Origin: Parcubacteria group bacterium
Lineage (GTDB): Bacteria; Patescibacteriota; Minisyncoccia; Phycocordibacterales; UBA2135
Direction of reading: 5' to 3'
Assembly: GCA_016180525.1 (NCBI GenBank)
Contig: JACPBB010000001.1
Coordinates: forward strand, 251,840 to 315,839
Length of the DNA stretch: 64,000 bases
In this document: in pieces, positions 2,917-52,258 of the stretch
How the letters are laid out: every line of letters begins with the position of its first letter
Numbering within the stretch: the stretch's first letter is position 1
Program-made: the position numbers and the translations under genes
Notes under the pieces: generated by a model
What the model saw: only the letters and a program-made list of their open reading frames with translations
Told to the model about the DNA's origin: nothing
Database searches by the model: none

Positions 2917-4698
2917 CTATTGCCTAATATTATACATCTTGAAGAAGTAGGAGTCTTTCTTTTGGAGAAGATCGCCCGGCTTCCCAATTTCGGTTATTTT
3001 TCCATTATCTAAAACGAGAAGTGTGTCGCAATTCATAACAGTCCCCAAGCGGTGCGCAATGGCCAAAACCGTTATCTTTCCTTTTAAATTTTCTATGACT
3101 TCCTGCACCCGTTTTTCAGATTCGTTATCCAGTGCACTCGTCGCTTCGTCAAGAATGAGTAGTTGTGGATTTCGTGCCAACACTCTGGCAATAACGATTC
3201 TTTGCCGTTGTCCTGCCGACAAGCGGATGCCGCGCTCTCCTATTACCGAATCCCATTTTTTGGGTAATACTTCTATCGTCTCATAAATATTCGCCTGTTT
3301 CGCGGCGTATCTAATTTGTTCATCAGTGATGGTATCGTCAAAAAAACGAATGTTATTTGCTACTGTATCATTTATTAAATGAATATCTTGAGAAACATAC
3401 CCCACATTTCTACGAAATTCATGCAGATCAATTTCTGAGATTAAGGCTCTGTCTAAGAGAATGTCTCCTTTAGTCGGTTTAAATAAACGAAGCACGAGGT
3501 CAACAATCGTTGTTTTCCCCGCGCCAGAGGGGCCGATAAGCCCCACGAGTGACCCTTTGGGAACAGAAAAGGAAACTCCCGAGAGTATTTTTTTGTCTTC
3601 AGTATATCCAAATGACACATTGATAAATGAGAACTTTTCTTTAAACACAAACGCCTGCCCTCCCCTGTCTTCCTCTTCGTTTTTAAGCGCCCTTTTTTGA
3701 TATGAAAGCACGTGCTCAAGATATGGAATCATTCTAAATATGGTTTGAAGATGGGTCTGGAAACTTTGCACTTGAGAAAAAATTCTTTGAATCAAGTATA
3801 CAATGGCTATAAACGCGGGAAGATTAAAGTCTCCCGTTTTATAAGAAAAGGAAAAAAGCAGAAGAATAAAGATGACCCCGAACGGCTGAAAAAAGGAACC
3901 GAATACAGTGCTGATGAGCGCCCTCTTTATTTGAAGTTTCCGCAACGTTTCAAAATATTTTTCACCGACCTCTTCCACCGAATCGGTAACAGACATTGCT
4001 TTTACCGTTTTCATTCCAAGAACGTTTTCATTAACGAAGTGGGCGACACTTCGTGTTTTTTCGGCAACCTCTTGGCTTATCCTGCGCATTGTATTCACAA
4101 TCGGCTGAAATCCGATCGTAATAATAACACCCACACCCATAGTCAAAAGAGTTATGAAGAAAGAGATATTAACCGCGACAATAATATATACCAAAAGGCT
4201 CGTAAGAATGAGAATAAAAGAACTTAATGTCTCCAGAAGCTTTCTCACGTACGCAATTTCAACCGAAAGAACTTTTTCCAAGTGTCCTATTTTTTGATCC
4301 AGAAGGTGCCCCCATTTGGAACGCAGAGATTTTACAAAAAGCTCATCACGAATATTTTTTTCATAGCCATATGCTATTTTGAATTGAACGTATGACCCGA
4401 TAAACAGGACAGCGGCCTTTATGATAAAGAGAACCGCAATAAAAATAAGAAGATAATGTAAAGTAAAATCGGCTCCCAAAAACCCAAATAAACGTTCAAT
4501 AGCTTGTGAAATAAAATCATCTGCCGGACCAGCGTCTGTAATAAAAGAAAAAAGAGGAATCAGGGCATTAGCGCCCACACCCTCAAGAAGGCCGCTTAAA
4601 AAACCGATGCCGGTTAACGCCAGGATTTGTAATTTATAATCGCCAAACGCATCTTTCAACAAAGATAGGCCGCGAATGATTTTTTTAATAATATTCAT
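2917..4698 (-). CDS. ABC transporter, fused permease/ATP-binding protein (MsbA-like exporter)
   Basis: Six N-terminal TM helices. Walker A GPSGAGKTT, ABC signature LSAGQRQR, Walker B ILDEATSALD. Confidence 0.9.
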   Translation of the reverse strand: MNIIKKIIRGLSLLKDAFGDYKLQILALTGIGFLSGLLEGVGANALIPLFSFITDAGPADDFISQAIERLFGFLGADFTLHYLLIFIAVLFIIKAAVLFIGSYVQFKIAYGYEKNIRDELFVKSLRSKWGHLLDQKIGHLEKVLSVEIAYVRKLLETLSSFILILTSLLVYIIVAVNISFFITLLTMGVGVIITIGFQPIVNTMRRISQEVAEKTRSVAHFVNENVLGMKTVKAMSVTDSVEEVGEKYFETLRKLQIKRALISTVFGSFFQPFGVIFILLLFSFSYKTGDFNLPAFIAIVYLIQRIFSQVQSFQTHLQTIFRMIPYLEHVLSYQKRALKNEEEDRGGQAFVFKEKFSFINVSFGYTEDKKILSGVSFSVPKGSLVGLIGPSGAGKTTIVDLVLRLFKPTKGDILLDRALISEIDLHEFRRNVGYVSQDIHLINDTVANNIRFFDDTITDEQIRYAAKQANIYETIEVLPKKWDSVIGERGIRLSAGQRQRIVIARVLARNPQLLILDEATSALDNESEKRVQEVIENLKGKITVLAIAHRLGTVMNCDTLLVLDNGKITEIGKPGDLLQKKDSYFFKMYNIRQ

Positions 4699-20242: not shown

Positions 20243-20330
20243 AAAAATTTAAAATGAAAAGCGAAAACGTAAAATAATTTTGAATTGTTATTTTAAGTTT
20301 TGCGTTTTGCTTTTTGCATTTAGAATTCCT
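20243..20330 (-). promoter_or_regulatory. conserved upstream element, copy upstream of asnB
   Basis: In gene orientation: GCAAAACGCAAAACTTAAAATAAC...TTTTCGCTTTTCATTTTAAATTTTT then ATG. A third, more divergent copy lies at about 6211-6260 upstream of (and overlapping the annotated start of) gene 4810-6222. Confidence 0.6.
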
Positions 20331-21661
20331 GTCAGGAATTCGTTGATTCTTTCGGCTGACTTCCCATCAAGTTTATATATAAATTGACTAATCATATTTT
20401 GCACATCCCTTTGTTGATTTTCTTCCAAAATATTCTTCAAAAATTTTAAAAATTCCTCCTCGCTTCTCGCAAGCCATGTTCCGCGAGATTCCATTAAATG
20501 CCTTACGTAATCGCTTATGAATAGTCGTTTTACCGACGCGCTCTCCGGAGTAGCAGTGACATCAAAGTTAAAGTTTACAACGGGAGTTCCGCACGCAATG
20601 GCGTCAAGCGAAAGCGTGGAGGCAACGTTCACGCACACATCCGCGTGATAGAGAGAGTTGAAAAGATTATACACGTGTTCTATTGAAGTATCATAATGAT
20701 CTCGAAGAGCGTGATTTTGTTTATCGCTCGTGTCAACAGCCATTCCTTTTTGCCCGCGTAAGGATAAAAACCGCTCCGCATCTCCCTTATAACCCAAGTG
20801 CGGGCGTATGAGTATGTTTGCCTCCGCAAGTTTTCCTTCATCCATAAATTTCCTGATTAAAAGAACGTGCTTTGATTCATCAAATAGTTTCGCCCCAGCT
20901 GAACCATAAAGAATTATTTTCTTTTTTGGATCAAAGTTGTGCTTTTTACAAAAATCTTCCCGTGAGAGTAATCCCTCTTTCCGCGCATAGAAATCAAACT
21001 GCGGAATGCCCGTAACGATGATTTCAGTATCAGAATATCCTTGGAGTGTAATCGCCTTCTCGCGCATAAAATTATTCCACACAATAAGAAAATCCGCCTT
21101 GGAGGAAAAAAGCGCCTGAGATACATTGTCCCATGTTTTGGGCATATCAACCGTTATTACACCAAAACGCCGTGCGCTTTCAATTACGCCACAATCACCG
21201 CCCGCTGCTGTATTAAAAACTAAATCAGGTTTATATTTTTCAAAAAGATAATCGTGGGCCAGAAGCGGATTTATAAATGAATGTACGGCGCGAATGATCC
21301 ATTTTGCGAAAGGCACATACCGCAGTGGCGCAAAAAAAATCATCCGAAGCGGAAAAAGAACGGTGCTCGGATTTTGTGGAGTTCCGATACTATACCGATA
21401 TCGGGCATATACACTACTGTTAAAAACAGCCCCCTTATAAAGCTCTTTAAAAAATCTTCTAAATTTTTCTTTTTGGTCCCAATGCAGGGGTTCTAATATT
21501 AAATTTTTATGAGCAAAACTGGAAAACAGTTCTGGCATTTTATAATATGGGGTCAAAACCACAACATGAAAACCGCTCTCAAGGAGACGGGAAACCACTC
21601 CAGTGTGAAACATATTGCGAATGATTCCTCCACGAGAAACAGTGATGAAAATTGTTTTCAT
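20288..21661 (-). CDS. GT-B fold, TagF-like surface glycopolymer protein, paralog B
   Basis: MKTIFITVSRGGIIRN, KYKPDLVF, IRPHL and HADVCVNVASTLSLDAIACGTPVVNF motifs. Paralog of 4810-6222. Confidence 0.4.
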   Translation of the reverse strand: MKTIFITVSRGGIIRNMFHTGVVSRLLESGFHVVVLTPYYKMPELFSSFAHKNLILEPLHWDQKEKFRRFFKELYKGAVFNSSVYARYRYSIGTPQNPSTVLFPLRMIFFAPLRYVPFAKWIIRAVHSFINPLLAHDYLFEKYKPDLVFNTAAGGDCGVIESARRFGVITVDMPKTWDNVSQALFSSKADFLIVWNNFMREKAITLQGYSDTEIIVTGIPQFDFYARKEGLLSREDFCKKHNFDPKKKIILYGSAGAKLFDESKHVLLIRKFMDEGKLAEANILIRPHLGYKGDAERFLSLRGQKGMAVDTSDKQNHALRDHYDTSIEHVYNLFNSLYHADVCVNVASTLSLDAIACGTPVVNFNFDVTATPESASVKRLFISDYVRHLMESRGTWLARSEEEFLKFLKNILEENQQRDVQNMISQFIYKLDGKSAERINEFLTGILNAKSKTQNLK

Positions 21662-29828: not shown

Positions 29829-29838
29829 AAATATATAT

Positions 29839-29926
29839 GATGCGAAAATAGCGAAATCTATGCGAAATGTGCGAAATTATGAATTTTCTTTTCGTGGCTT
29901 TCGCATACTTTTTGTGGATTTCGTAT
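29839..29926. repeat. about 90-bp repeat element, copy A (GCGAAAT x4 followed by inverted TTTCG(C/T) x3)
   Basis: GATGCGAAAATAGCGAAATCTATGCGAAATGTGCGAAATTATGAATTTTCTTTTCGTGGCTTTCGCATACTTTTTGTGGATTTCGTATC. Copy B at 31625-31713 differs at about 5 positions. It lies immediately upstream of the methyltransferase ATG (29828) and overlaps the last ~17 codons of the aminotransferase ORF. Confidence 0.85.
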
Positions 29927-31040: not shown

Positions 31041-31227
31041 TTTTAAAATTTCTAATTAATCTAATTACTCTAATTATTCTAATCAAATCCCAATTAATTA
31101 AATCCTAAATTAGAAATCCTAAATCCTAAACAAATACAAAATTCAAATGAAAAAATTATTAAGTGTTTTTATTTTTTGAATTTTTGATTTCGATATTGTT
31201 TAGAGTTTAGATATTAGGATTTAGAAT
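31041..31227. repeat. structured 187-bp intercistronic spacer: degenerate about 9-bp tandem repeat (TCTAATTAN x4) plus long imperfect inverted repeat
   Basis: TCTAATTAATCTAATTACTCTAATTATTCTAATCAAA..., AAATCCTAAATTAGAAATCCTAAATCCTAAAC versus the reverse complement of GTTTAGAGTTTAGATATTAGGATTTAGAATTT, and a nested inverted repeat CAAAATTCAAA / TTTGAATTTTG. Confidence 0.6.
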
Positions 31228-31611
31228 TTAAAGAATCTTTACTCTCACCGTATCATCTTCATATCCCTTCACGCCCCTAGCGAGTGTCGTCATGTCAAGC
31301 ATTGCCGCTGGAGAAAGCGCTTTATACGCGTGCACAATATTTGACGGAATACGACTGAACATTCCTTCTTTCAAAATAAATTTTTTCTTATTTTTTCCAT
31401 TTTTGTCTGAGACAACAAAAATGATTTTTCCTTTTAAAATATATGTATATTGTATAGATTTTTTGTGGTAGTGATTACCGCGCACCGCGCCTTTTTTAAA
31501 CGTAATGAGTCCCACATGAGAAAGCGGCTCTTCCACAATATCAAAAATATGCCCACGCGCATCCGTAAACGCGGGCTTAATCATATAATTTTCAACAACA
31601 GATTTTTTCAT
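31228..31611 (-). CDS. cupin-fold sugar nucleotide 3,4-ketoisomerase-like protein (FdtA/WxcM C-terminal-domain-like)
   Basis: 127 aa. GAVRGNHYHKK...NIVHAY His-containing cupin motifs similar to FdtA/QdtA. Context: next to a DegT aminotransferase and a C-methyltransferase. Confidence 0.5.
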   Translation of the reverse strand: MKKSVVENYMIKPAFTDARGHIFDIVEEPLSHVGLITFKKGAVRGNHYHKKSIQYTYILKGKIIFVVSDKNGKNKKKFILKEGMFSRIPSNIVHAYKALSPAAMLDMTTLARGVKGYEDDTVRVKIL

Positions 31612-31624
31612 AAAATAAATACAC

Positions 31625-31713
31625 GATGCGAAAACAGCGAAATCTATGCGAAATGTGCGAAATTATGAATTTTCTTTTCGCGGTTTTCGCATGCTTTTTG
31701 TGGATTTCGCATC
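31625..31713. repeat. about 90-bp repeat element, copy B
   Basis: GATGCGAAAACAGCGAAATCTATGCGAAATGTGCGAAATTATGAATTTTCTTTTCGCGGTTTTCGCATGCTTTTTGTGGATTTCGCATC. Immediately upstream of the ATG of the cupin gene (31611) and just past the stop of the C-methyltransferase gene. Confidence 0.85.
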
Positions 31714-47377: not shown

Positions 47378-48445
47378 CTATTTTCTGTGGTTTAACAGGC
47401 ATTGTTCAAAAGATTGTTTATACAAACGCAAATATTCTTCTTTATCTTTATAAGGATACTTGTATTCTAAAGGTTTGGGAAGTTCTTTTTTATAAAGCCG
47501 CAGGAGTATCTCTCCCAGTGACTGCGGGGTGTGTTCCGCGATATACGCCCCGACTTCATGGGCAACGCCTACATCAGTAGCAACAACTGGAATACCGGCA
47601 ACTCGCGCCTCAACCATCTGCAATCCATACCCTTCATACCACGAGGTTACAAGAAGCGCATCCGCGCCTTTATAATATCCCGCGACATCATTTTGCCAAC
47701 CGAGAAAAAGAACGTTATTTTGTAACTTGTAACGTGTAACTTGTAACTCAGGGTCGTTACGCTCCGAGCCGTCGCCGATGATGACAAGGCAAGAATTTGG
47801 AACATGCCTTTGGAATATATTAAACGCTTCTAGCGCAAGCATCGGATTTTTTTCTTTTTCAAGCCGCCCCACCCAGAGAATCGTGAAATCGTACCGTTTT
47901 GGTAAAGATGTTGGTTGCGCATTTTTAATTTTTTCTGCGTCTATCCAAATAGGCAGGACCGCGCAGCTTGTAGCTTGTAGCTTGTAGCTTGTAGCAAGAG
48001 AATTTTTTATTTTTTCACTAACCACGCGAATGCAATCCGCCCTCAAAAGAGTGCGCCGCAAAAACATTTTTCGGATGAAATTTTTTATGCTCGCCCTGGC
48101 AAAATACGGAGAGAAAACATCCGTATGAACTTGCAGTTGTAATTTTGCGTTTAAAGCTGACGCAAGGCGTGAGGCAATGAACCCTGTTTCAAACGGGTCT
48201 TGCGCTGTCACAATATCAATATCGCCCCGCACTCGTTTAACAATATTACCAATACCCCACAAAGAACTAAGCGGCTCATGAAAAACAAAAACGTTTGGAG
48301 AGATGCGTTCTTCTTTATATTTTCCAATCGAAATTACACAAATATAAAGATTTTCAAATAATTTCCCATATTCAACCATCCGCGCACGCACAGCGCTTCC
48401 TTTGTCAAAAATCTTCGCATCCCGTGAGAGCATTAAAACTTTCAT
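47378..48445 (-). CDS. GT4 (group 1) glycosyltransferase containing two heptanucleotide repeat tracts
   Basis: GRLEKEKNPMLALEAF...GDGSERNDPE...YEGYGLQMVEARVAGIPVVATDVG. Carries (TTGTAAC)x4 at about 47720-47747 and (CTTGTAG)x4 at about 47967-47994. Confidence 0.85.
   Translation of the reverse strand: MKVLMLSRDAKIFDKGSAVRARMVEYGKLFENLYICVISIGKYKEERISPNVFVFHEPLSSLWGIGNIVKRVRGDIDIVTAQDPFETGFIASRLASALNAKLQLQVHTDVFSPYFARASIKNFIRKMFLRRTLLRADCIRVVSEKIKNSLATSYKLQATSCAVLPIWIDAEKIKNAQPTSLPKRYDFTILWVGRLEKEKNPMLALEAFNIFQRHVPNSCLVIIGDGSERNDPELQVTRYKLQNNVLFLGWQNDVAGYYKGADALLVTSWYEGYGLQMVEARVAGIPVVATDVGVAHEVGAYIAEHTPQSLGEILLRLYKKELPKPLEYKYPYKDKEEYLRLYKQSFEQCLLNHRK
47720..47747. repeat. heptanucleotide tandem repeat TTGTAAC x4 (third unit GTGTAAC) inside a GT4 coding sequence
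   Basis: ttgtaacttgtaacgtgtaacttgtaac encodes LQVTRYKLQ. Confidence 0.9.
47967..47994. repeat. heptanucleotide tandem repeat CTTGTAG x4 inside the same GT4 coding sequence
   Basis: cttgtagcttgtagcttgtagcttgtag encodes ATSYKLQATS. Confidence 0.9.
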
Positions 48446-49494
48446 TATTTTAGTTTATTCTCAAATACATATTTCAGAAATGAATCAAATTTGAGATATT
48501 TCATGAACGTATCGCGAGCTAATGTTTGCTTCTTTTTAAATTCTTCGTCTGACATACCGTCCCAGAATTTCCTTATATATTTGTCCGTGTTTTTAATATC
48601 GGTATACGGCACAAACACAACAAATTTTTTATAATCTATTTCGCCTTCGCTGGGCAGCATCCATTCGGTATCAATTAAAACGGGAATTCTTCCTAATGCC
48701 AGTGTCTCATAAAACCGAACCGCCATATTCGCATCTCCGCGAACTATGAGTACAAAGTCAGAATTCCTGATGTTCCCAATATATTCTTTCCGTAATACCA
48801 TTGGGTCGCCTTGTACCGTATTTTTATTTGCTGAATAAAAGTTTCTTATCAAAAAAGAGGTTTTGATAAGCCGTGAATTTTGTAAGGCGGCAATTGCCCT
48901 TTTCCTCCAATAAATTCCTTGCTTGTGAACTTCGGCGTATCGGCTGCGAAAAATATATTTTTTCACATCAAGAGGAATTGTTTTTGAAAGATATTTTAAT
49001 CTCTGCCGCAGAGAATTGAGCTCAGCCCAGCCACAAAAACTCACTACAGGTATTTCTTTTTTATTACGAAGATAAAATAAATCATTTGCGAGGATATCGC
49101 TCGCGTAGATTTGTGTCGGGGTGATAATTTCATTTTCCGCTGCCCCCCGATATCTATATCCGGCATATCGGAAAAAAAGCGTATGCGGTAAATAAAATTG
49201 CTCGTCAGAATCAACGAGGGCAAACGCAAGAATCTTTTTATTGTGTCTCTGCGCAAGCTCAACAAAATGGCTGATATATGTCTTATTGTTTCTGAGCGTG
49301 GGATATGTATAGGGAATGAGGATAAAATCAGCACCTTCCGGTTTGCTTACAACTGTTATAAAACTGAAATCCATCTCATCAAAAATCGCCCTATACGGCT
49401 TCTTGCCTTCATACGGAGGAATTTTAAGCTCGCGGTTCAAGAACCGCAACGGCTTGCCGCCGGGAAATAGTTCACCAATATAGACCTTGGCCAT
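48445..49494 (-). CDS. GT47 (exostosin-like) family glycosyltransferase, paralog 2
   Basis: FVLIVRGDANMAVRFYETLALGRIPVLIDTEWMLPSEGEIDYKKFVVFVPY matches the exostosin motif. Collinear similarity to 21773-22939 throughout (ADFILIPY / ILAFALVDSDE / FFRYAGYRY...ENEIITP). Confidence 0.55.
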   Translation of the reverse strand: MAKVYIGELFPGGKPLRFLNRELKIPPYEGKKPYRAIFDEMDFSFITVVSKPEGADFILIPYTYPTLRNNKTYISHFVELAQRHNKKILAFALVDSDEQFYLPHTLFFRYAGYRYRGAAENEIITPTQIYASDILANDLFYLRNKKEIPVVSFCGWAELNSLRQRLKYLSKTIPLDVKKYIFRSRYAEVHKQGIYWRKRAIAALQNSRLIKTSFLIRNFYSANKNTVQGDPMVLRKEYIGNIRNSDFVLIVRGDANMAVRFYETLALGRIPVLIDTEWMLPSEGEIDYKKFVVFVPYTDIKNTDKYIRKFWDGMSDEEFKKKQTLARDTFMKYLKFDSFLKYVFENKLK

Positions 49495-49538: not shown

Positions 49539-51071
49539 TTAGAGCAATGTAACCAGTGATTCTATCGCTTTTTCTTTTGAAAACGATTTTGCCTTTTCTA
49601 TCCCGTTTTTTATCAGGTCGTTTCGCATGGCCCCATTCTTAAGAAGAGTTTTGACAGCGTTTTTGATTTCACTCTTGTCATTATATGAAACAAGCAGGCC
49701 CTCTTTTTGGTTCTCTATAAGCTCCGAGTTTCCTCCGATATTAGTCGTAATAATAGGGGTTCCGAGCGCCATTACTTCAAGCAATTGATGAGAAAACCCC
49801 TCATAGCCGGTATTGAGCACAAAGATATCGGCGGCTCGTATATATTCCGTAAGCATGCCAGATGACAATCTGCCGACTAAAAAAACTACATCTTGTAACT
49901 TGTAACTTGTAACTTGTAACTTGAGTGTTTCCCGCTCCGGTCCGTCTCCGGCTATATATAATTTAATATCGGGAATTTCTTTTTTTAGTTCAGCGATAAC
50001 GTCAATGAGCGCGGAAAATCCTTTCCACGGCACAAGCCGCCCCGCAGAAAAAATTACTGTTCCGTGCATTCCCAATTTTTCCCTTACGTTTTCTTTGGGC
50101 GCTAACGAAGCCGAAAACTCAAACGAATTATAAATGACTTTGATTTTCAGGCCTTCAATTCCCCACTGTTGTACGATTTTTTTGAGATATTCACTCGGCA
50201 CAACAATATGGCCTGCGTTTCGCGCGACAAGATGCTCAATTTTTCTCCGAGCTTCCGTCACGAAATCAAATTTTCTTTCTTGAAACTCCTCTGGCGTAAT
50301 AAATTTTCCATCGGTGTTTTTCATTTTTCGCTTTTCATTTTGCACTTGATACTGTTCCCACGCGTAGTCTCCCGCGATGCGTAACAAAAATTTTTTTCTA
50401 AGCAGTTTGGACACAATAAGCGCGGGAAATCCAACGCTTACCGGGTCAAGTGCGTATATAATTTCAGCTTCTGTGGCCCTAAAGCAAATAATTAAAAAAT
50501 AAACGAGGTGTCGAATAATTTTAGGCAGCTTGCGAACACTGCTAAAAGATACAATCGTAATGTGAATATTGCGACTTGGAAGCTCTGTTTCAAGAAGTTT
50601 TGCGTACGTAGCCGGGCCACCGATATCAGGAGGATAGAGCGGAGTGGCTAGGAGGACTCTCCCTTTCTGAGTGTGATTAAAAATAATATTTCCATATATA
50701 AAAAATGTTACGACCGCGATGGCGCCTGAAGAAAATACCTGCGCAAGCATGTACCAGAGGCCTGCAACAGAAACAAGTACGTACATAAAAAGGGCGTTCG
50801 CGGCAAGCCCCGTGAGCGCGGTTATAAGATATAGGGCGACTTGCCGTGAAATATCGTGCGTATGAGTATTTTTAAATGTCCATAATTTCTGCAACAGAAA
50901 GCTCGCAAAAAACGCGAAAACAAACGCAATCGTTGAGGAGAGAAGATACCACAGACCAACGATGTCAGTAAGCACATATAAAAAACTAAGCGATACAAAG
51001 GCCGCTATTCCTCCCGCAATTAGATATCGCGCGATTTTATTTTGAATAAATTTTAAAAACATAATTTTCAT
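49539..51071 (-). CDS. GtrA-like membrane domain fused to a GT4 glycosyltransferase; contains a heptanucleotide repeat tract
   Basis: N-terminal 4-TM GtrA-like segment (IARYLIAGGIAAFVSLSFLYVL...) followed by a GT4 domain (...GDGPERETL...GFSHQLLEVMALGTPIITTNIGG). (CTTGTAA)x4 at about 49892-49919 encodes KLQVTSYKLQ. Confidence 0.75.
   Translation of the reverse strand: MKIMFLKFIQNKIARYLIAGGIAAFVSLSFLYVLTDIVGLWYLLSSTIAFVFAFFASFLLQKLWTFKNTHTHDISRQVALYLITALTGLAANALFMYVLVSVAGLWYMLAQVFSSGAIAVVTFFIYGNIIFNHTQKGRVLLATPLYPPDIGGPATYAKLLETELPSRNIHITIVSFSSVRKLPKIIRHLVYFLIICFRATEAEIIYALDPVSVGFPALIVSKLLRKKFLLRIAGDYAWEQYQVQNEKRKMKNTDGKFITPEEFQERKFDFVTEARRKIEHLVARNAGHIVVPSEYLKKIVQQWGIEGLKIKVIYNSFEFSASLAPKENVREKLGMHGTVIFSAGRLVPWKGFSALIDVIAELKKEIPDIKLYIAGDGPERETLKLQVTSYKLQDVVFLVGRLSSGMLTEYIRAADIFVLNTGYEGFSHQLLEVMALGTPIITTNIGGNSELIENQKEGLLVSYNDKSEIKNAVKTLLKNGAMRNDLIKNGIEKAKSFSKEKAIESLVTLL
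49892..49919. repeat. heptanucleotide tandem repeat CTTGTAA x4 inside a GT4 coding sequence
   Basis: cttgtaacttgtaacttgtaacttgtaa. Same unit as in gene 47378-48445. Confidence 0.9.
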
Positions 51072-52258
51072 GATGCTGTTTCAAAAATATGTTTCATTGT
51101 GTTAGCAATTTTATTCCAATCGTGTTTTTCTGTAGCAACTTCACGAGCATTTTTAACAATAGTACTTATCGCTTCTTTGTGCTTCGGATTGATAATAAAA
51201 TCTACTTGATCTGCAACGCTTTTGGGGTCTTTTACTCCGCATATAAACCCGGTTTCTCTGTCTTTTAGAAAGTCTACTATGCCGCCAACGGCTGTTCCGA
51301 TAACCGGAATTCCCGCGGCCATCGCCTCAATAAAAGAATTGCCCATACCCTCCGAAAGAGAGGGACGAACAAAAATATCCGAAGATTTAAGATATGGTGG
51401 AACTTTTTTCCCGTCAATAAATCCCAAAAAATGAACTCTGCGCGAAACACCCACATCTTCCGCGAGTTTTTTGAGCATCCGCTCATCAGGCCCAACCCCG
51501 AGTACAATAAAATGAACGGTTTCTGGTAAATATCTAAGCGCCTTTATAACATCATCAACGGCGTTCTTCTTCACCAGCCGTGATGTCGTAATTAAAGCCT
51601 TATCTTTTTCCTGTATTTTTAAACTTTTTCGTAGCTCCTCTGTTTTATGTTTTTCGATTTGCGTTTTGAATTTTTCTACATCTACCCCATTCGGCACAAC
51701 GGAGCTCTTCCCTTTAAACCCCATTTTCCTTCCCCATTTTTCAAGAAACGAAGATTCGCCGACGAGATGGTCGGCAAGCGCAAATCCCCTTACAAACAAA
51801 GGCCATGCAGGCAACATTGTGCGTTCTATGTATTCGGGAGGATCTCCCTCTTGAAGCGTTAGAACATAAAAAACGTCTCTATAAAATGTTTTAAAAAGAC
51901 CGGCAGGAATTCCTGCAGAGTGTGCCATCATAGCCCACATGCCGTCAAAGTGGTGTGTGCGATGAAGCGCGGCCCCTTTTAAAAAAGCGAGAATCTGAAA
52001 AATATATTTGTTGAGGTGCAAAGGAAATAGGCGGAAATCGGCAGAGTTTGGACTCATTTTTGCAAAACCGATGCGATGCACAAAAACATTTCCAACCTTT
52101 TCTGATTTTGGCAGTGCCTTGTCAAACCGCGCAGTCACCATGTGAAACTCAAATTCATCAGGAGAAATTCTGTCCGTGATTTCTTTTATGGCGACTTCCG
52201 CACCCCCCACAAACGGATAATACGCAAGAGAAAATATAAGAACTTTCTTTGGTGTCAT
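51068..52258 (-). CDS. GT4 (group 1) glycosyltransferase
   Basis: VLIFSLAYYPFVGGAEVAI N-terminus and C-terminal EGMGNSFIEAMAAGIPVIGTAVGG. Confidence 0.85.
   Translation of the reverse strand: MTPKKVLIFSLAYYPFVGGAEVAIKEITDRISPDEFEFHMVTARFDKALPKSEKVGNVFVHRIGFAKMSPNSADFRLFPLHLNKYIFQILAFLKGAALHRTHHFDGMWAMMAHSAGIPAGLFKTFYRDVFYVLTLQEGDPPEYIERTMLPAWPLFVRGFALADHLVGESSFLEKWGRKMGFKGKSSVVPNGVDVEKFKTQIEKHKTEELRKSLKIQEKDKALITTSRLVKKNAVDDVIKALRYLPETVHFIVLGVGPDERMLKKLAEDVGVSRRVHFLGFIDGKKVPPYLKSSDIFVRPSLSEGMGNSFIEAMAAGIPVIGTAVGGIVDFLKDRETGFICGVKDPKSVADQVDFIINPKHKEAISTIVKNAREVATEKHDWNKIANTMKHIFETAS

What the first reader, a model, noticed from the sequence alone, without database searches (positions are those of the whole stretch)
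49892..49919. Third copy of the CTTGTAA x4 heptanucleotide tract in a second glycosyltransferase (GtrA-GT4 fusion)
Same repeat unit as in gene 47378-48445, here in gene 49539-51071. It encodes KLQVTSYKLQ at the position equivalent to the GT4 interdomain linker. This gives two adjacent glycosyltransferases with identical simple-sequence repeats, which could allow combinatorial on/off switching of the glycan structure. The protein is also an unusual fusion of a GtrA-like 4-TM domain to a GT4 domain.
Basis: partly seen in the sequence, partly recalled or inferred. Interest (0 to 1): 0.7.

Follow-up and report, generated by a model that had tools for sequence, protein, structure and literature searches.

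The report
Coding heptanucleotide repeat in glycosyltransferase gene
A perfect 7-base repeat sits in frame inside a sugar-transferase gene of an uncultured Parcubacteria bacterium; it is one of a very common, apparently undescribed class of ~31-base heptamer tracts in these bacteria, and it can occasionally knock a gene out by slippage but does not look like a fast on/off switch.

Summary
The repeat is real. (CTTGTAA)x4.6 is perfect at 49892-49923, in frame in a minus-strand GtrA-GT4 gene. Only one other perfect repeat of period >=5 exists in the 64-kb window, and it lies in the neighbouring GT4 gene.

The tract is not in an interdomain linker. It encodes a confident helix and loop (LKLQVTSYKLQ) of the C-terminal Rossmann domain. 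The GtrA-GT4 fusion is common in Patescibacteria.

The tract belongs to a much larger class:
- In 530 kb of related loci, heptamers dominate perfect tandem repeats (50, versus 0-3 for periods 5, 6 and 8-12).
- Almost all are 30-34 nt long, on the coding strand and in frame.
- They recur at the same GT4 sites with different units.
- They also occur in housekeeping genes such as Lgt, Tmk, RecJ and UvrC.

The tracts do change. Orthologs show unit changes copied across all repeats. One near-identical strain pair differs by one unit, which splits the gene. Another pair differs by three units, in frame.

Such changes are rare. Length was the same in 15 of 16 loci seen in near-identical contigs, and none of 95 coding tracts was frameshifted.

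Best reading: a slippage-prone coding microsatellite kept in frame by selection, at most a slow switch. Why the period is 7 remains unexplained.

The parts
49892..49923 (-). Perfect heptanucleotide tract. It reads (CTTGTAA)x4.6 on the + strand and (AAGTTAC)n in the coding sense. It encodes LKLQVTSYKLQ, residues ~383-394 of the GtrA-GT4 protein ('site B').
   Evidence: It maps to a helix and loop of the C-terminal Rossmann domain in the model.
49539..51071 (-). GtrA-GT4 fusion gene (510 aa). It has four N-terminal TM helices, a GT4 N domain and a GT4 C domain with EX7E (EGFSHQLLE).
   Evidence: ORF; Pfam. A 100% identical NCBI protein comes from a Parcubacteria MAG. Model has mean pLDDT 84.9.
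50317..50341 (-). Decayed heptamer tract ('site A') in the same gene. It encodes QNEKRKMKN just after GDYAWEQ.
   Evidence: TRF reports period 7, 3.6 copies, 77% matches. Codon view and the ortholog's (GTAGAAA)n tract at the same site are. Many homologs have perfect tracts here. The model has a low-confidence loop here.
47378..48445 (-). Second GT4 glycosyltransferase gene (355 aa). It carries two heptamer tracts.
47719..47748 (-). Imperfect tract with the same unit (AAGTTAC, 2 mismatches). It encodes ELQVTRYKLQ at the structurally equivalent site B of the second GT4.
47965..47995 (-). Perfect (AGCTTGT)x4.4 tract, coding sense (GCTACAA)n. It encodes ATSYKLQATS in the last loop of the N-terminal domain ('site C'). 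This, not the tract in the finding, is the one close to the interdomain junction.
20297..20321 (-). Fourth near-perfect heptamer tract of the window. It lies at the C-terminal end of a TagF-like (Glyphos_transf) gene, 20288-21661.
51068..52258 (-). Third GT4 gene of the operon. It has no tract (LKKLAEDVGVSRR at site B) and serves as an internal control: the GxG-to-VxF spacing is the same as in the tract-bearing gene.
48445..49494 (-). GT47 (exostosin-like) gene between the two tract-bearing GT4 genes. The gene order is conserved in the ortholog locus.

Best explanation
The tract is a coding heptanucleotide microsatellite. It is one member of a pervasive class of ~31-nt heptamer tracts in Patescibacteria genomes.

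Proposed mechanism:
- DNA-level misalignment (replication slippage or templated misalignment between neighbouring 7-nt units) creates the units and keeps homogenising them.
- Purifying selection keeps the tract in frame and keeps the protein segment at its canonical length.
- Selection allows only units whose three reading phases give a stop-free heptad peptide. At this site the peptide must also be amphipathic so that it can form the Rossmann-fold helix (L0, V/I4, Y/L7).

Consequence: the tract is a fragile site. Rare +-1/+-2-unit slips give frameshift null alleles that can in principle revert. +-3-unit slips give in-frame 7-residue length variants. In glycan genes that are under selection for loss of function, this could work as a slow, incidental switch. 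It is not a dedicated high-frequency phase-variation device.

Shown: the tract itself, its structural position, the size and properties of the class, unit change copied across all repeats, natural -1 and -3 unit alleles, and the rarity of such alleles.

Inferred: slippage as the generating mechanism, the heptad/helix filter, and the low switching rate of this particular tract.
For: 1. Reality and context.
2. Structural role: helix 377-386 plus loop, pLDDT 88-94. The GxG-to-VxFxG spacer is 17 aa in most of 176 GT4 domains whether or not they are heptad-periodic. 109/176 show i/i+7 identities against 44 in shuffles, and offset 7 is unique among offsets 3-11.
3. Class: in 530 kb of related loci, perfect repeats of >=3 copies by period are 4:14, 5:1, 6:0, 7:50, 8:0, 9:3. 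At >=2.5 copies period 7 gives 102 against 16, 9, 4 and 3 for periods 5, 6, 8 and 9, and an E. coli glycan region has none of period >=6. Tract lengths are 25-36 nt with modes at 30-31 and 33-34. All tracts with an ORF through them lie on the strand of the long ORF and are ORF-preserving, at recurrent GT4 sites and with many different units.
4. Dynamics: the orthologs in L120 have the same tract length, but the unit differs by one base in every copy, at two sites. There is a -3-unit in-frame allele (L124 vs L125) and a -1-unit frameshift allele as the only indel between 99.7%-identical strains (L207 vs L129/L130).
5. Rarity of change.
6. Not specific to glycan genes: in-frame tracts occur in Lgt, Tmk, RecJ, UvrC, FemAB and pilins of CPR genomes. 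Tract density is similar (~1 per 10 kb) in GT-centred loci and these other CPR loci.
7. Peptide filter: tracts are A-rich and G-poor on the coding strand (A 47%, G 10%, against 30% and 23% in the background).
Against: - The strict preference for period 7 over 5, 8, 10 and 11 is not predicted by plain slippage.
- Neither is the fixed size of ~4.5 units, nor the fact that tracts replace existing sequence without changing its length.
- Perfect tracts persist at the same sites across orthologs that are only 45-69% identical. This could reflect selection for mutability, which is the contingency-locus logic.
- Within the window all four near-perfect tracts lie in GT-B-type transferase genes.
- Two independent nonsense alleles in one population show that on/off variation of this gene family is under selection.
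- No read-level data exist for this particular tract.
Confidence: 0.55

Rival explanations
1. True contingency locus. The heptamer tracts in the two adjacent GT4 genes are maintained by second-order selection as reversible frameshift switches. They would give combinatorial on/off variation of a surface glycan, for example to escape phages or change host attachment.
For: - The tract is a perfect non-triplet SSR inside glycan genes.
- +-1 unit truncates the enzyme.
- A natural -1-unit frameshift allele exists at a sister tract in an ortholog, and it is the only indel between near-identical strains.
- The units are homogenised across all copies and tracts are kept perfect at the same sites over deep divergence.
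- Both of the two substitutions between two Hainich H51 strains are nonsense mutations in this gene. A TAG nonsense allele also occurs in a related GT4.
- Heptanucleotide precedents exist: neuO and H. influenzae hmw.
Against: - There are only 4.6 units, and copy number is nearly invariant across the class.
- 15/16 loci have the same length in near-identical contigs.
- 0/95 coding tracts are out of frame.
- There are 2 length variants in ~115 cluster members, against 65.6% OFF and 3-53 repeats for neuO.
- Tracts show no 5' bias; the median position is 0.46 of the ORF.
- The same kind of tract sits in essential housekeeping genes.
Confidence: 0.22
2. Footprint of a dedicated heptamer-writing process other than ordinary slippage. 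This could be a repair or retro-type polymerase activity, or a micro-mobile element. It would overwrite ~31 nt with copies of a local 7-nt seed and would operate in many phyla. The tract in the GT4 gene would be a tolerated by-product.
For: - The period is sharply specific and the size is fixed.
- Tracts are length-neutral at site B.
- At site C a (GAATCAA)-like tract in the ortholog is replaced by (GCTACAA)n of nearly the same length.
- The same units recur at different sites and in different phyla.
- Genomes that have one heptamer tract have others nearby: 28 of period 7 against <=7 of any other period.
Against: - No associated enzyme or conserved flanking motif was found.
- The -1 and -3 unit alleles behave like ordinary slippage.
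- Part of the unit vocabulary can be explained by stop-codon avoidance and peptide filtering.
- The cross-phylum count rests on one pattern searched in 596 Gb, with no base rate for other units.
Confidence: 0.15
3. Cis-acting nucleic-acid element (internal promoter, terminator, structured RNA or protein-binding array), or a short homology cassette for recombination between the paralogous GT4 genes.
For: The same unit occurs at the equivalent site of two genes 2.2 kb apart in direct orientation. Tract length is close to minimal homology lengths for recombination (own knowledge).
Against: - The tracts show no RNA structure (z = -0.41, +0.82, +0.95).
- Promoter-like and terminator-like sites are at shuffle level, and none lies at the tract in the finding (49892-49923).
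- The unit sequence differs from tract to tract, so no common binding factor is likely.
- The two same-unit tracts share only ~14 nt of uninterrupted identity.
- The ortholog's two tracts have different units.
Confidence: 0.04

Closest known systems
neuO of E. coli K1 prophage CUS-3: phase-variable O-acetyltransferase with a coding (AAGACTC)n heptanucleotide repeat
   Same: Both are heptanucleotide tandem repeats inside the coding sequence of a surface-glycan-modifying enzyme. Both are translated as a heptad peptide. Only certain copy numbers keep the full-length frame (for neuO, those divisible by three), and +-1 unit gives a truncated protein (PMC13001214).
   Different: neuO's tract is at the 5' end, ranges from 3 to 53 units, and is OFF in 65.6% of genomes, with mixed repeat numbers within a culture. 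Here the tract is internal, encodes a canonical fold element, has 4.6 units, and the class shows almost no length variation.
SSR contingency loci of LOS/capsule glycosyltransferases (H. influenzae tetranucleotides, Campylobacter/Neisseria homopolymers) and H. influenzae heptanucleotide SSRs (hmw promoters; internal (AATTTTG)14 in hmw1A)
   Same: Simple repeats in surface-glycan or adhesin genes, with slipped-strand mispairing as the mutational mechanism. Frameshifted alleles are found in natural isolates (PMC2651432).
   Different: Known loci have long, highly variable tracts and use several unit sizes. Here only period 7 is enriched, the copy number is low and fixed, and the tracts are also common in housekeeping genes.
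Cyanobacterial STRR (short tandemly repeated repetitive) heptanucleotide sequences (own knowledge, Mazel et al. 1990; not retrieved with the paper tools)
   Same: Lineage-wide abundance of tandem heptanucleotide repeats with several different units and no known function. Some peptide translations look alike, for example LEIGNWK-type units.
   Different: To my knowledge STRRs are described as mostly intergenic arrays in heterocystous cyanobacteria. Here the tracts are short, of fixed size and overwhelmingly in frame within genes. No comparison was run.
GT4 family GT-B glycosyltransferases fused to a GtrA-like domain
   Same: The host gene matches on Pfam domains, the EX7E motif and a two-Rossmann model with four N-terminal TM helices.
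   Different: Nothing unusual. The architecture is common in Patescibacteria.

Membership tests
SSR contingency locus (phase variation by slipped-strand mispairing) | Perfect tandem repeat with a unit not divisible by 3, inside an ORF or promoter | tested here: met
   (CTTGTAA)x4.6 is perfect and lies in the ORF.
SSR contingency locus (phase variation by slipped-strand mispairing) | Repeat number varies between closely related strains or within populations | tested here: inconclusive
   Only one contig carries this exact gene. Among sister tracts, 1 of 16 loci in near-identical contigs varies, and there are 2 variants in ~115 cluster members.
SSR contingency locus (phase variation by slipped-strand mispairing) | Both ON and OFF frames are commonly found among genomes | tested here: not met
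   0/95 coding tracts are frameshifted in 80 related loci. A single -1-unit OFF allele was found. neuO is 65.6% OFF.
SSR contingency locus (phase variation by slipped-strand mispairing) | Long tract with a broad copy-number distribution | tested here: not met
   The tract has 4.6 units. The class spans 25-36 nt, and no tract reaches 7 units.
SSR contingency locus (phase variation by slipped-strand mispairing) | Reversible switching at roughly 1e-2 to 1e-5 per generation | not testable with these tools
   This needs reads, cultures or a reporter assay.
SSR contingency locus (phase variation by slipped-strand mispairing) | Gene encodes a surface or glycan determinant | tested here: met
   The gene is a GtrA-GT4 in a ~60-kb glycan cluster.
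GT4 (GT-B fold) glycosyltransferase | Glyco_transf_4 and Glycos_transf_1 domains, EX7E motif, two Rossmann-like domains | tested here: met
   PF00534 E 1.8e-42 and PF13439 E 5.5e-7. EGFSHQLLE is present. The model has two beta-alpha-beta domains, pLDDT 84.9.
GtrA-like family (PF04138) | Four-TM-helix N-terminal domain matching GtrA_DPMS_TM | tested here: met
   PF04138 E 2.5e-19, aa 15-131. Four long helices at 9-35, 39-62, 71-99 and 104-127.
NeuO-type heptad VNTR domain | 5'-terminal, highly variable heptanucleotide array whose in-frame length tunes activity | tested here: not met
   The tract is internal, at 75% of the ORF, with a fixed ~4.5 units. An effect on activity is not testable.
Cyanobacterial STRR heptanucleotide repeats | Tandem heptamers of a few family-specific units, mainly intergenic, in cyanobacteria | not tested
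   The resemblance is recalled from memory. No cyanobacterial data were examined.

The most novel reading that the evidence does not exclude
Patescibacteria, and sporadic lineages of other phyla, may have a heptamer-specific mutational process. It would repeatedly write ~31-nt tracts of a local 7-nt seed into DNA without changing its length, at roughly one perfect tract per 10 kb, including inside folded helices of enzymes. In glycan genes such as this GtrA-GT4, these tracts would then be retained as built-in, revertible knock-out sites. That would be a previously undescribed genome-wide evolvability mechanism in ultra-small symbiotic bacteria.
Probability: 0.17. Interest if true: 0.85.

Novelty: new variant of a known kind. 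Interest (0 to 1): 0.6.

Why it matters
- If the tracts are only tolerated microsatellites, they still reveal a strong, unexplained heptamer-specific mutational signature. Standard SSR surveys that stop at units of 6 nt would miss it; PSSRdb, for example, covers motifs of 1-6 bp (abstract).
- The tracts show that a non-triplet repeat can encode a native structural helix.
- Patescibacteria depend on cell-surface contact with hosts and are exposed to phages. If the tracts do provide revertible null alleles in glycan genes, they would give these uncultured bacteria a testable route to surface variation. The independent nonsense alleles seen in one aquifer population suggest such variation is under selection.
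- In practice, the tracts are sites where annotation pipelines will call split genes.

Tried and rejected
- Chance occurrence: rejected.
- Interdomain-linker location: rejected by Pfam coordinates and the model.
- 'Unusual fusion': rejected.
- RNA structure in the tract: none.
- Promoter or terminator at the tract: none above shuffle level.
- Recombination cassette between the two same-unit tracts: only ~14 nt of uninterrupted identity, and the ortholog's two tracts differ in unit.
- Simple '+21-nt insertion' model: rejected for site B, because the spacer length is the canonical 17 aa with or without periodicity and no period-21 duplications exist.
- Conserved flanking motif or target site around tracts: none seen.
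- Search for frameshifted tracts in 80 related loci: three candidates, judged from the tract sequences and, for L152, ORF coordinates to be gene boundaries.
- Split genes in protein clusters: L209 and L210 are point nonsense mutations and L208 is an unrelated deletion, so none of these is a tract slip.
- Ten further clusters: no tract-related indels.
- Literature searches for heptanucleotide repeats or phase variation in CPR/Patescibacteria: nothing relevant found in the held library. STRR papers were not retrieved.
- GT-specific enrichment: could not be established, because the window is almost entirely a glycan cluster and tract density in other CPR loci is similar.
Full report
**1. The observation**

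Bases 49892-49919 are exactly (CTTGTAA)x4. The perfect period-7 run continues to 49923, giving 4.6 copies at 100% identity. The tract lies in the minus-strand ORF 49539-51071 (510 aa). In the coding sense it reads (AAGTTAC)n and is translated as ...GDGPERETLKLQVTSYKLQDVVFLVG....

It is far beyond chance. A two-unit probe with one mismatch allowed has 6 hits against 0.03 expected. The only perfect tandem repeats of period >=5 and >=3 copies in the whole 64-kb window are this tract and (AGCTTGT)x4.4 at 47965-47995, in the next-but-one gene.

Gene 47378-48445 has an imperfect copy of the same unit at 47719-47748 (two mismatches, ELQVTRYKLQ). It also has a perfect tract of a different unit (CTTGTAG) at 47965-47995.

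**2. The host gene**

Pfam gives GtrA_DPMS_TM (aa 15-131) followed by GT4 N- and C-terminal domains. An identical protein is deposited from a Parcubacteria MAG, on a 344-kb contig.

The fusion is not unusual. 29 of the 120 best homolog clusters have the same architecture.

The surrounding window is one large glycan-biosynthesis region on one strand. It contains GT2, PMT_2, TagF-like, GT47, GT4, sugar epimerases and methyltransferases.

An AlphaFold model (pLDDT 84.9) shows four N-terminal TM helices and two Rossmann-like domains. The tract encodes most of helix 377-386 and the following loop, between strands 366-371 and 393-397, at high confidence. It is therefore inside the C-terminal domain, not in the interdomain linker.

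The tract-free paralog 51068-52258 has essentially the same GxG-to-VxF spacing (18 aa against 17 aa). The tract is therefore not a net insertion.

**3. A much larger phenomenon**

Homologs across Patescibacteria carry 7-residue-periodic peptides at the same site. Examples are LRFKIKDLRM, LELRIKNYEL, LKFQISNLKL and LELQATSYKLQA.

I fetched DNA for 80 related metagenome loci, 530 kb in total. The results were as follows.
- Perfect tandem repeats of >=3 copies by period were 4:14, 5:1, 6:0, 7:50, 8:0, 9:3 and 10-12:0.
- At >=2.5 copies the series is 176, 16, 9, 102, 4, 3 for periods 4 to 9. The E. coli O-antigen/colanic-acid region has nothing of period >=6.
- The heptamer tracts have a narrow size range of 25-36 nt, with modes at 30-31 and 33-34 nt, which is four units plus 2-6 nt. 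None reaches seven units. There are no period-21 duplications.
- Every tract with an ORF through it lies on the strand of the long ORF and leaves that ORF open. Many different units are used. The tracts recur at about six positions of the GT-B fold: after VGDYAWEQ, after GDGPE..L (the site in the finding), before ilPif, after vvPNG, and others.
- They are A-rich and G-poor on the coding strand and show no 5' bias within genes.
- At site B the spacer is 17 aa in most of 176 domains, whether or not it is heptad-periodic. 62% of domains show i/i+7 identities against 25% in shuffles. Offset 7 is unique among offsets 3-11.

The window's own gene also has a decayed tract at site A (50317-50341). A fourth near-perfect tract lies in a TagF-like gene at 20297-20321.

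**4. Not specific to glycan genes**

Long intergenic arrays occur in Pseudomonas and Alcanivorax.

In CPR genomes the same unit, and other heptamer units, lie in frame in Lgt (two tracts), thymidylate kinase (two), RecJ, UvrC, FemAB (two), pilin-like proteins, a Wzy-type ligase and a GT4.

The density of perfect tracts is about one per 10 kb, both in GT4-centred loci and in these other CPR loci.

**5. Do the tracts change?**

Over long times they do. In the syntenic ortholog locus L120 (69% protein identity) the tract has the same length, but its unit is AAGTTGC instead of AAGTTAC in every copy. The second GT4's site-B tract has AAGCTAC instead of AAGTTAC in every copy. At site C a decayed (GAATCAA)-like tract in L120 corresponds to the window's perfect (GCTACAA)n. 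This is concerted evolution: a base change becomes copied into every repeat unit.

At the strain level I found three tract-associated variants.
- L124 against L125 (>90% identical proteins): an exact 21-nt (three-unit) in-frame deletion at site B.
- L207 against L129/L130 (99.7% identical over 3.6 kb, five substitutions): the only indel is the loss of one unit from (AATTTCC)x4.3 at site A. This splits the GtrA-GT4 gene into ORFs of 263 and 273 aa.
- L126: a TCA-to-TAA change makes the (AAGATTT) tract perfect and creates an in-frame stop.

L126 and L209 come from replicate samples of one aquifer well. They differ at only two positions in 1855 nt, and both differences are nonsense mutations in this gene. 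L210 carries a TAG in a related GT4. This suggests selection for loss of function.

Such variants are nevertheless rare.
- 15 of 16 tract loci seen in two or more near-identical contigs have identical lengths.
- None of 95 coding tracts in the 80 loci is frameshifted.
- About 115 full-length members of 20 protein clusters gave only the two length variants above.
- For the established heptanucleotide switch neuO, repeat numbers range from 3 to 53 and 65.6% of genomes are OFF (PMC13001214).

**6. Consequences at this locus**

A change of +-1 or +-2 units truncates the protein at 392-425 aa, before the EX7E region. A change of +-3 units adds or removes seven residues of the helix.

**7. Interpretation**

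The best-supported reading is a slippage-prone coding microsatellite. It is generated and homogenised at the DNA level. Selection then filters it for reading frame, canonical length and a stop-free, helix-compatible heptad (L0, V/I4, Y/L7 at site B). It can produce null alleles that can in principle revert, and in-frame length variants. In glycan genes under loss-of-function selection this could act as a slow switch. The class as a whole does not behave like a contingency locus.

Three observations remain unexplained by plain slippage and leave room for a dedicated heptamer-generating process:
- the exclusive enrichment of period 7;
- the fixed size of about 4.5 units;
- the length-neutral replacement of existing sequence.

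Cis-element and recombination-cassette readings were tested and disfavoured.

**8. Novelty**

Heptanucleotide SSRs in surface genes are known, for example neuO and hmw. I found no report of SSR-based variation or heptamer tracts in CPR/Patescibacteria in the searchable library. That library is incomplete, and the resemblance to cyanobacterial STRR repeats rests on my own knowledge.

I rate the finding a new variant of a known kind. The specific on/off claim is of moderate interest. The lineage-wide heptamer signature behind it is of higher interest.

Noticed in passing
L001-L119 (genome-contig hits); e.g. L017 1549-1632, L081, L040, L065: (CTTGTAR)n, read as KLQ[AV]TSY, occurs in more than 119 species-representative genomes of many phyla. 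Intergenic arrays reach 9-14 units in Pseudomonas, Alcanivorax and Electrothrix. Those genomes also carry other heptamer tracts nearby (28 of period 7 against <=7 of any other period in 479 kb).
   Followed up: partly
L018 3130-3159 and 3659-3679; L037 1264-1335; L035 5998-6024; L053 7217-7237; L060 1750-1920; L008 781-801; L048 5542-5628: In CPR genomes heptamer tracts lie in frame inside housekeeping genes: Lgt, thymidylate kinase, RecJ, UvrC and FemAB. They also lie just upstream of the N-methylation motif of pilin-like proteins.
   Followed up: partly
L208 3319-3345; L135 1517-1665; L137 4355; L144 965; L190 1698; L210 1080 (none in the window): A separate GC-rich ~21-nt palindromic element (CCTGCCTGCCGGCGAGGCAGG, encoding ..LPAGEAGL.. 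or PDGQAG) sits in frame in CPR glycosyltransferase genes. Its presence or absence is polymorphic between >90% identical proteins (P0150 vs P0013; P0158 vs P0034). It looks like a miniature mobile hairpin insert.
   Followed up: partly
L126 1781-1783; L209 ~2975-2977; L210 ~3380-3382: In-frame nonsense codons (TAA, TAA, TAG) interrupt GT4 genes in otherwise near-identical strains. L126 and L209 (Hainich well H51 replicates) differ at only two positions in 1855 nt, and both are nonsense mutations in the same GtrA-GT4 gene. This suggests selection for loss of function.
   Followed up: partly
window 31051-31230: This intergenic stretch contains several degenerate short tandem repeats: (TCTAATTAA)x3.7, (TAAATCC)x4.6 and, about 70 nt away, (TTTAGAA)x4.6, which looks by eye roughly like the reverse complement of the second (not checked with a tool). 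Its function is unknown.
   Followed up: no
window 1-64000: Of the genes scanned with Pfam (29 of 56 ORFs), most belong to glycan synthesis or sugar modification: PMT_2, GT2 x2, TagF-like x2, GT47 x2, GT4 x3, many methyltransferases, sugar epimerases/dehydratases, asparagine synthase and GH57. All but 5 of the 56 ORFs are on the minus strand, so this is an unusually long glycan supercluster for a small genome.
   Followed up: partly
window 29835-29881 and 31626-31712: TRF reports near-identical 20-nt repeats (ATGCGAAAAGAGCGAAATT-like, ~2.2 copies) at two places about 1.8 kb apart, with an inverted copy at 31674-31712. I did not examine them.
   Followed up: no
L208 3240-3340: A double-GT4 gene is split by a deletion that removes the VVPNGVD-coding segment next to a heptamer tract and a palindromic element. 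This is not a unit slip, but it shows these composite repeat regions are also deletion-prone.
   Followed up: partly
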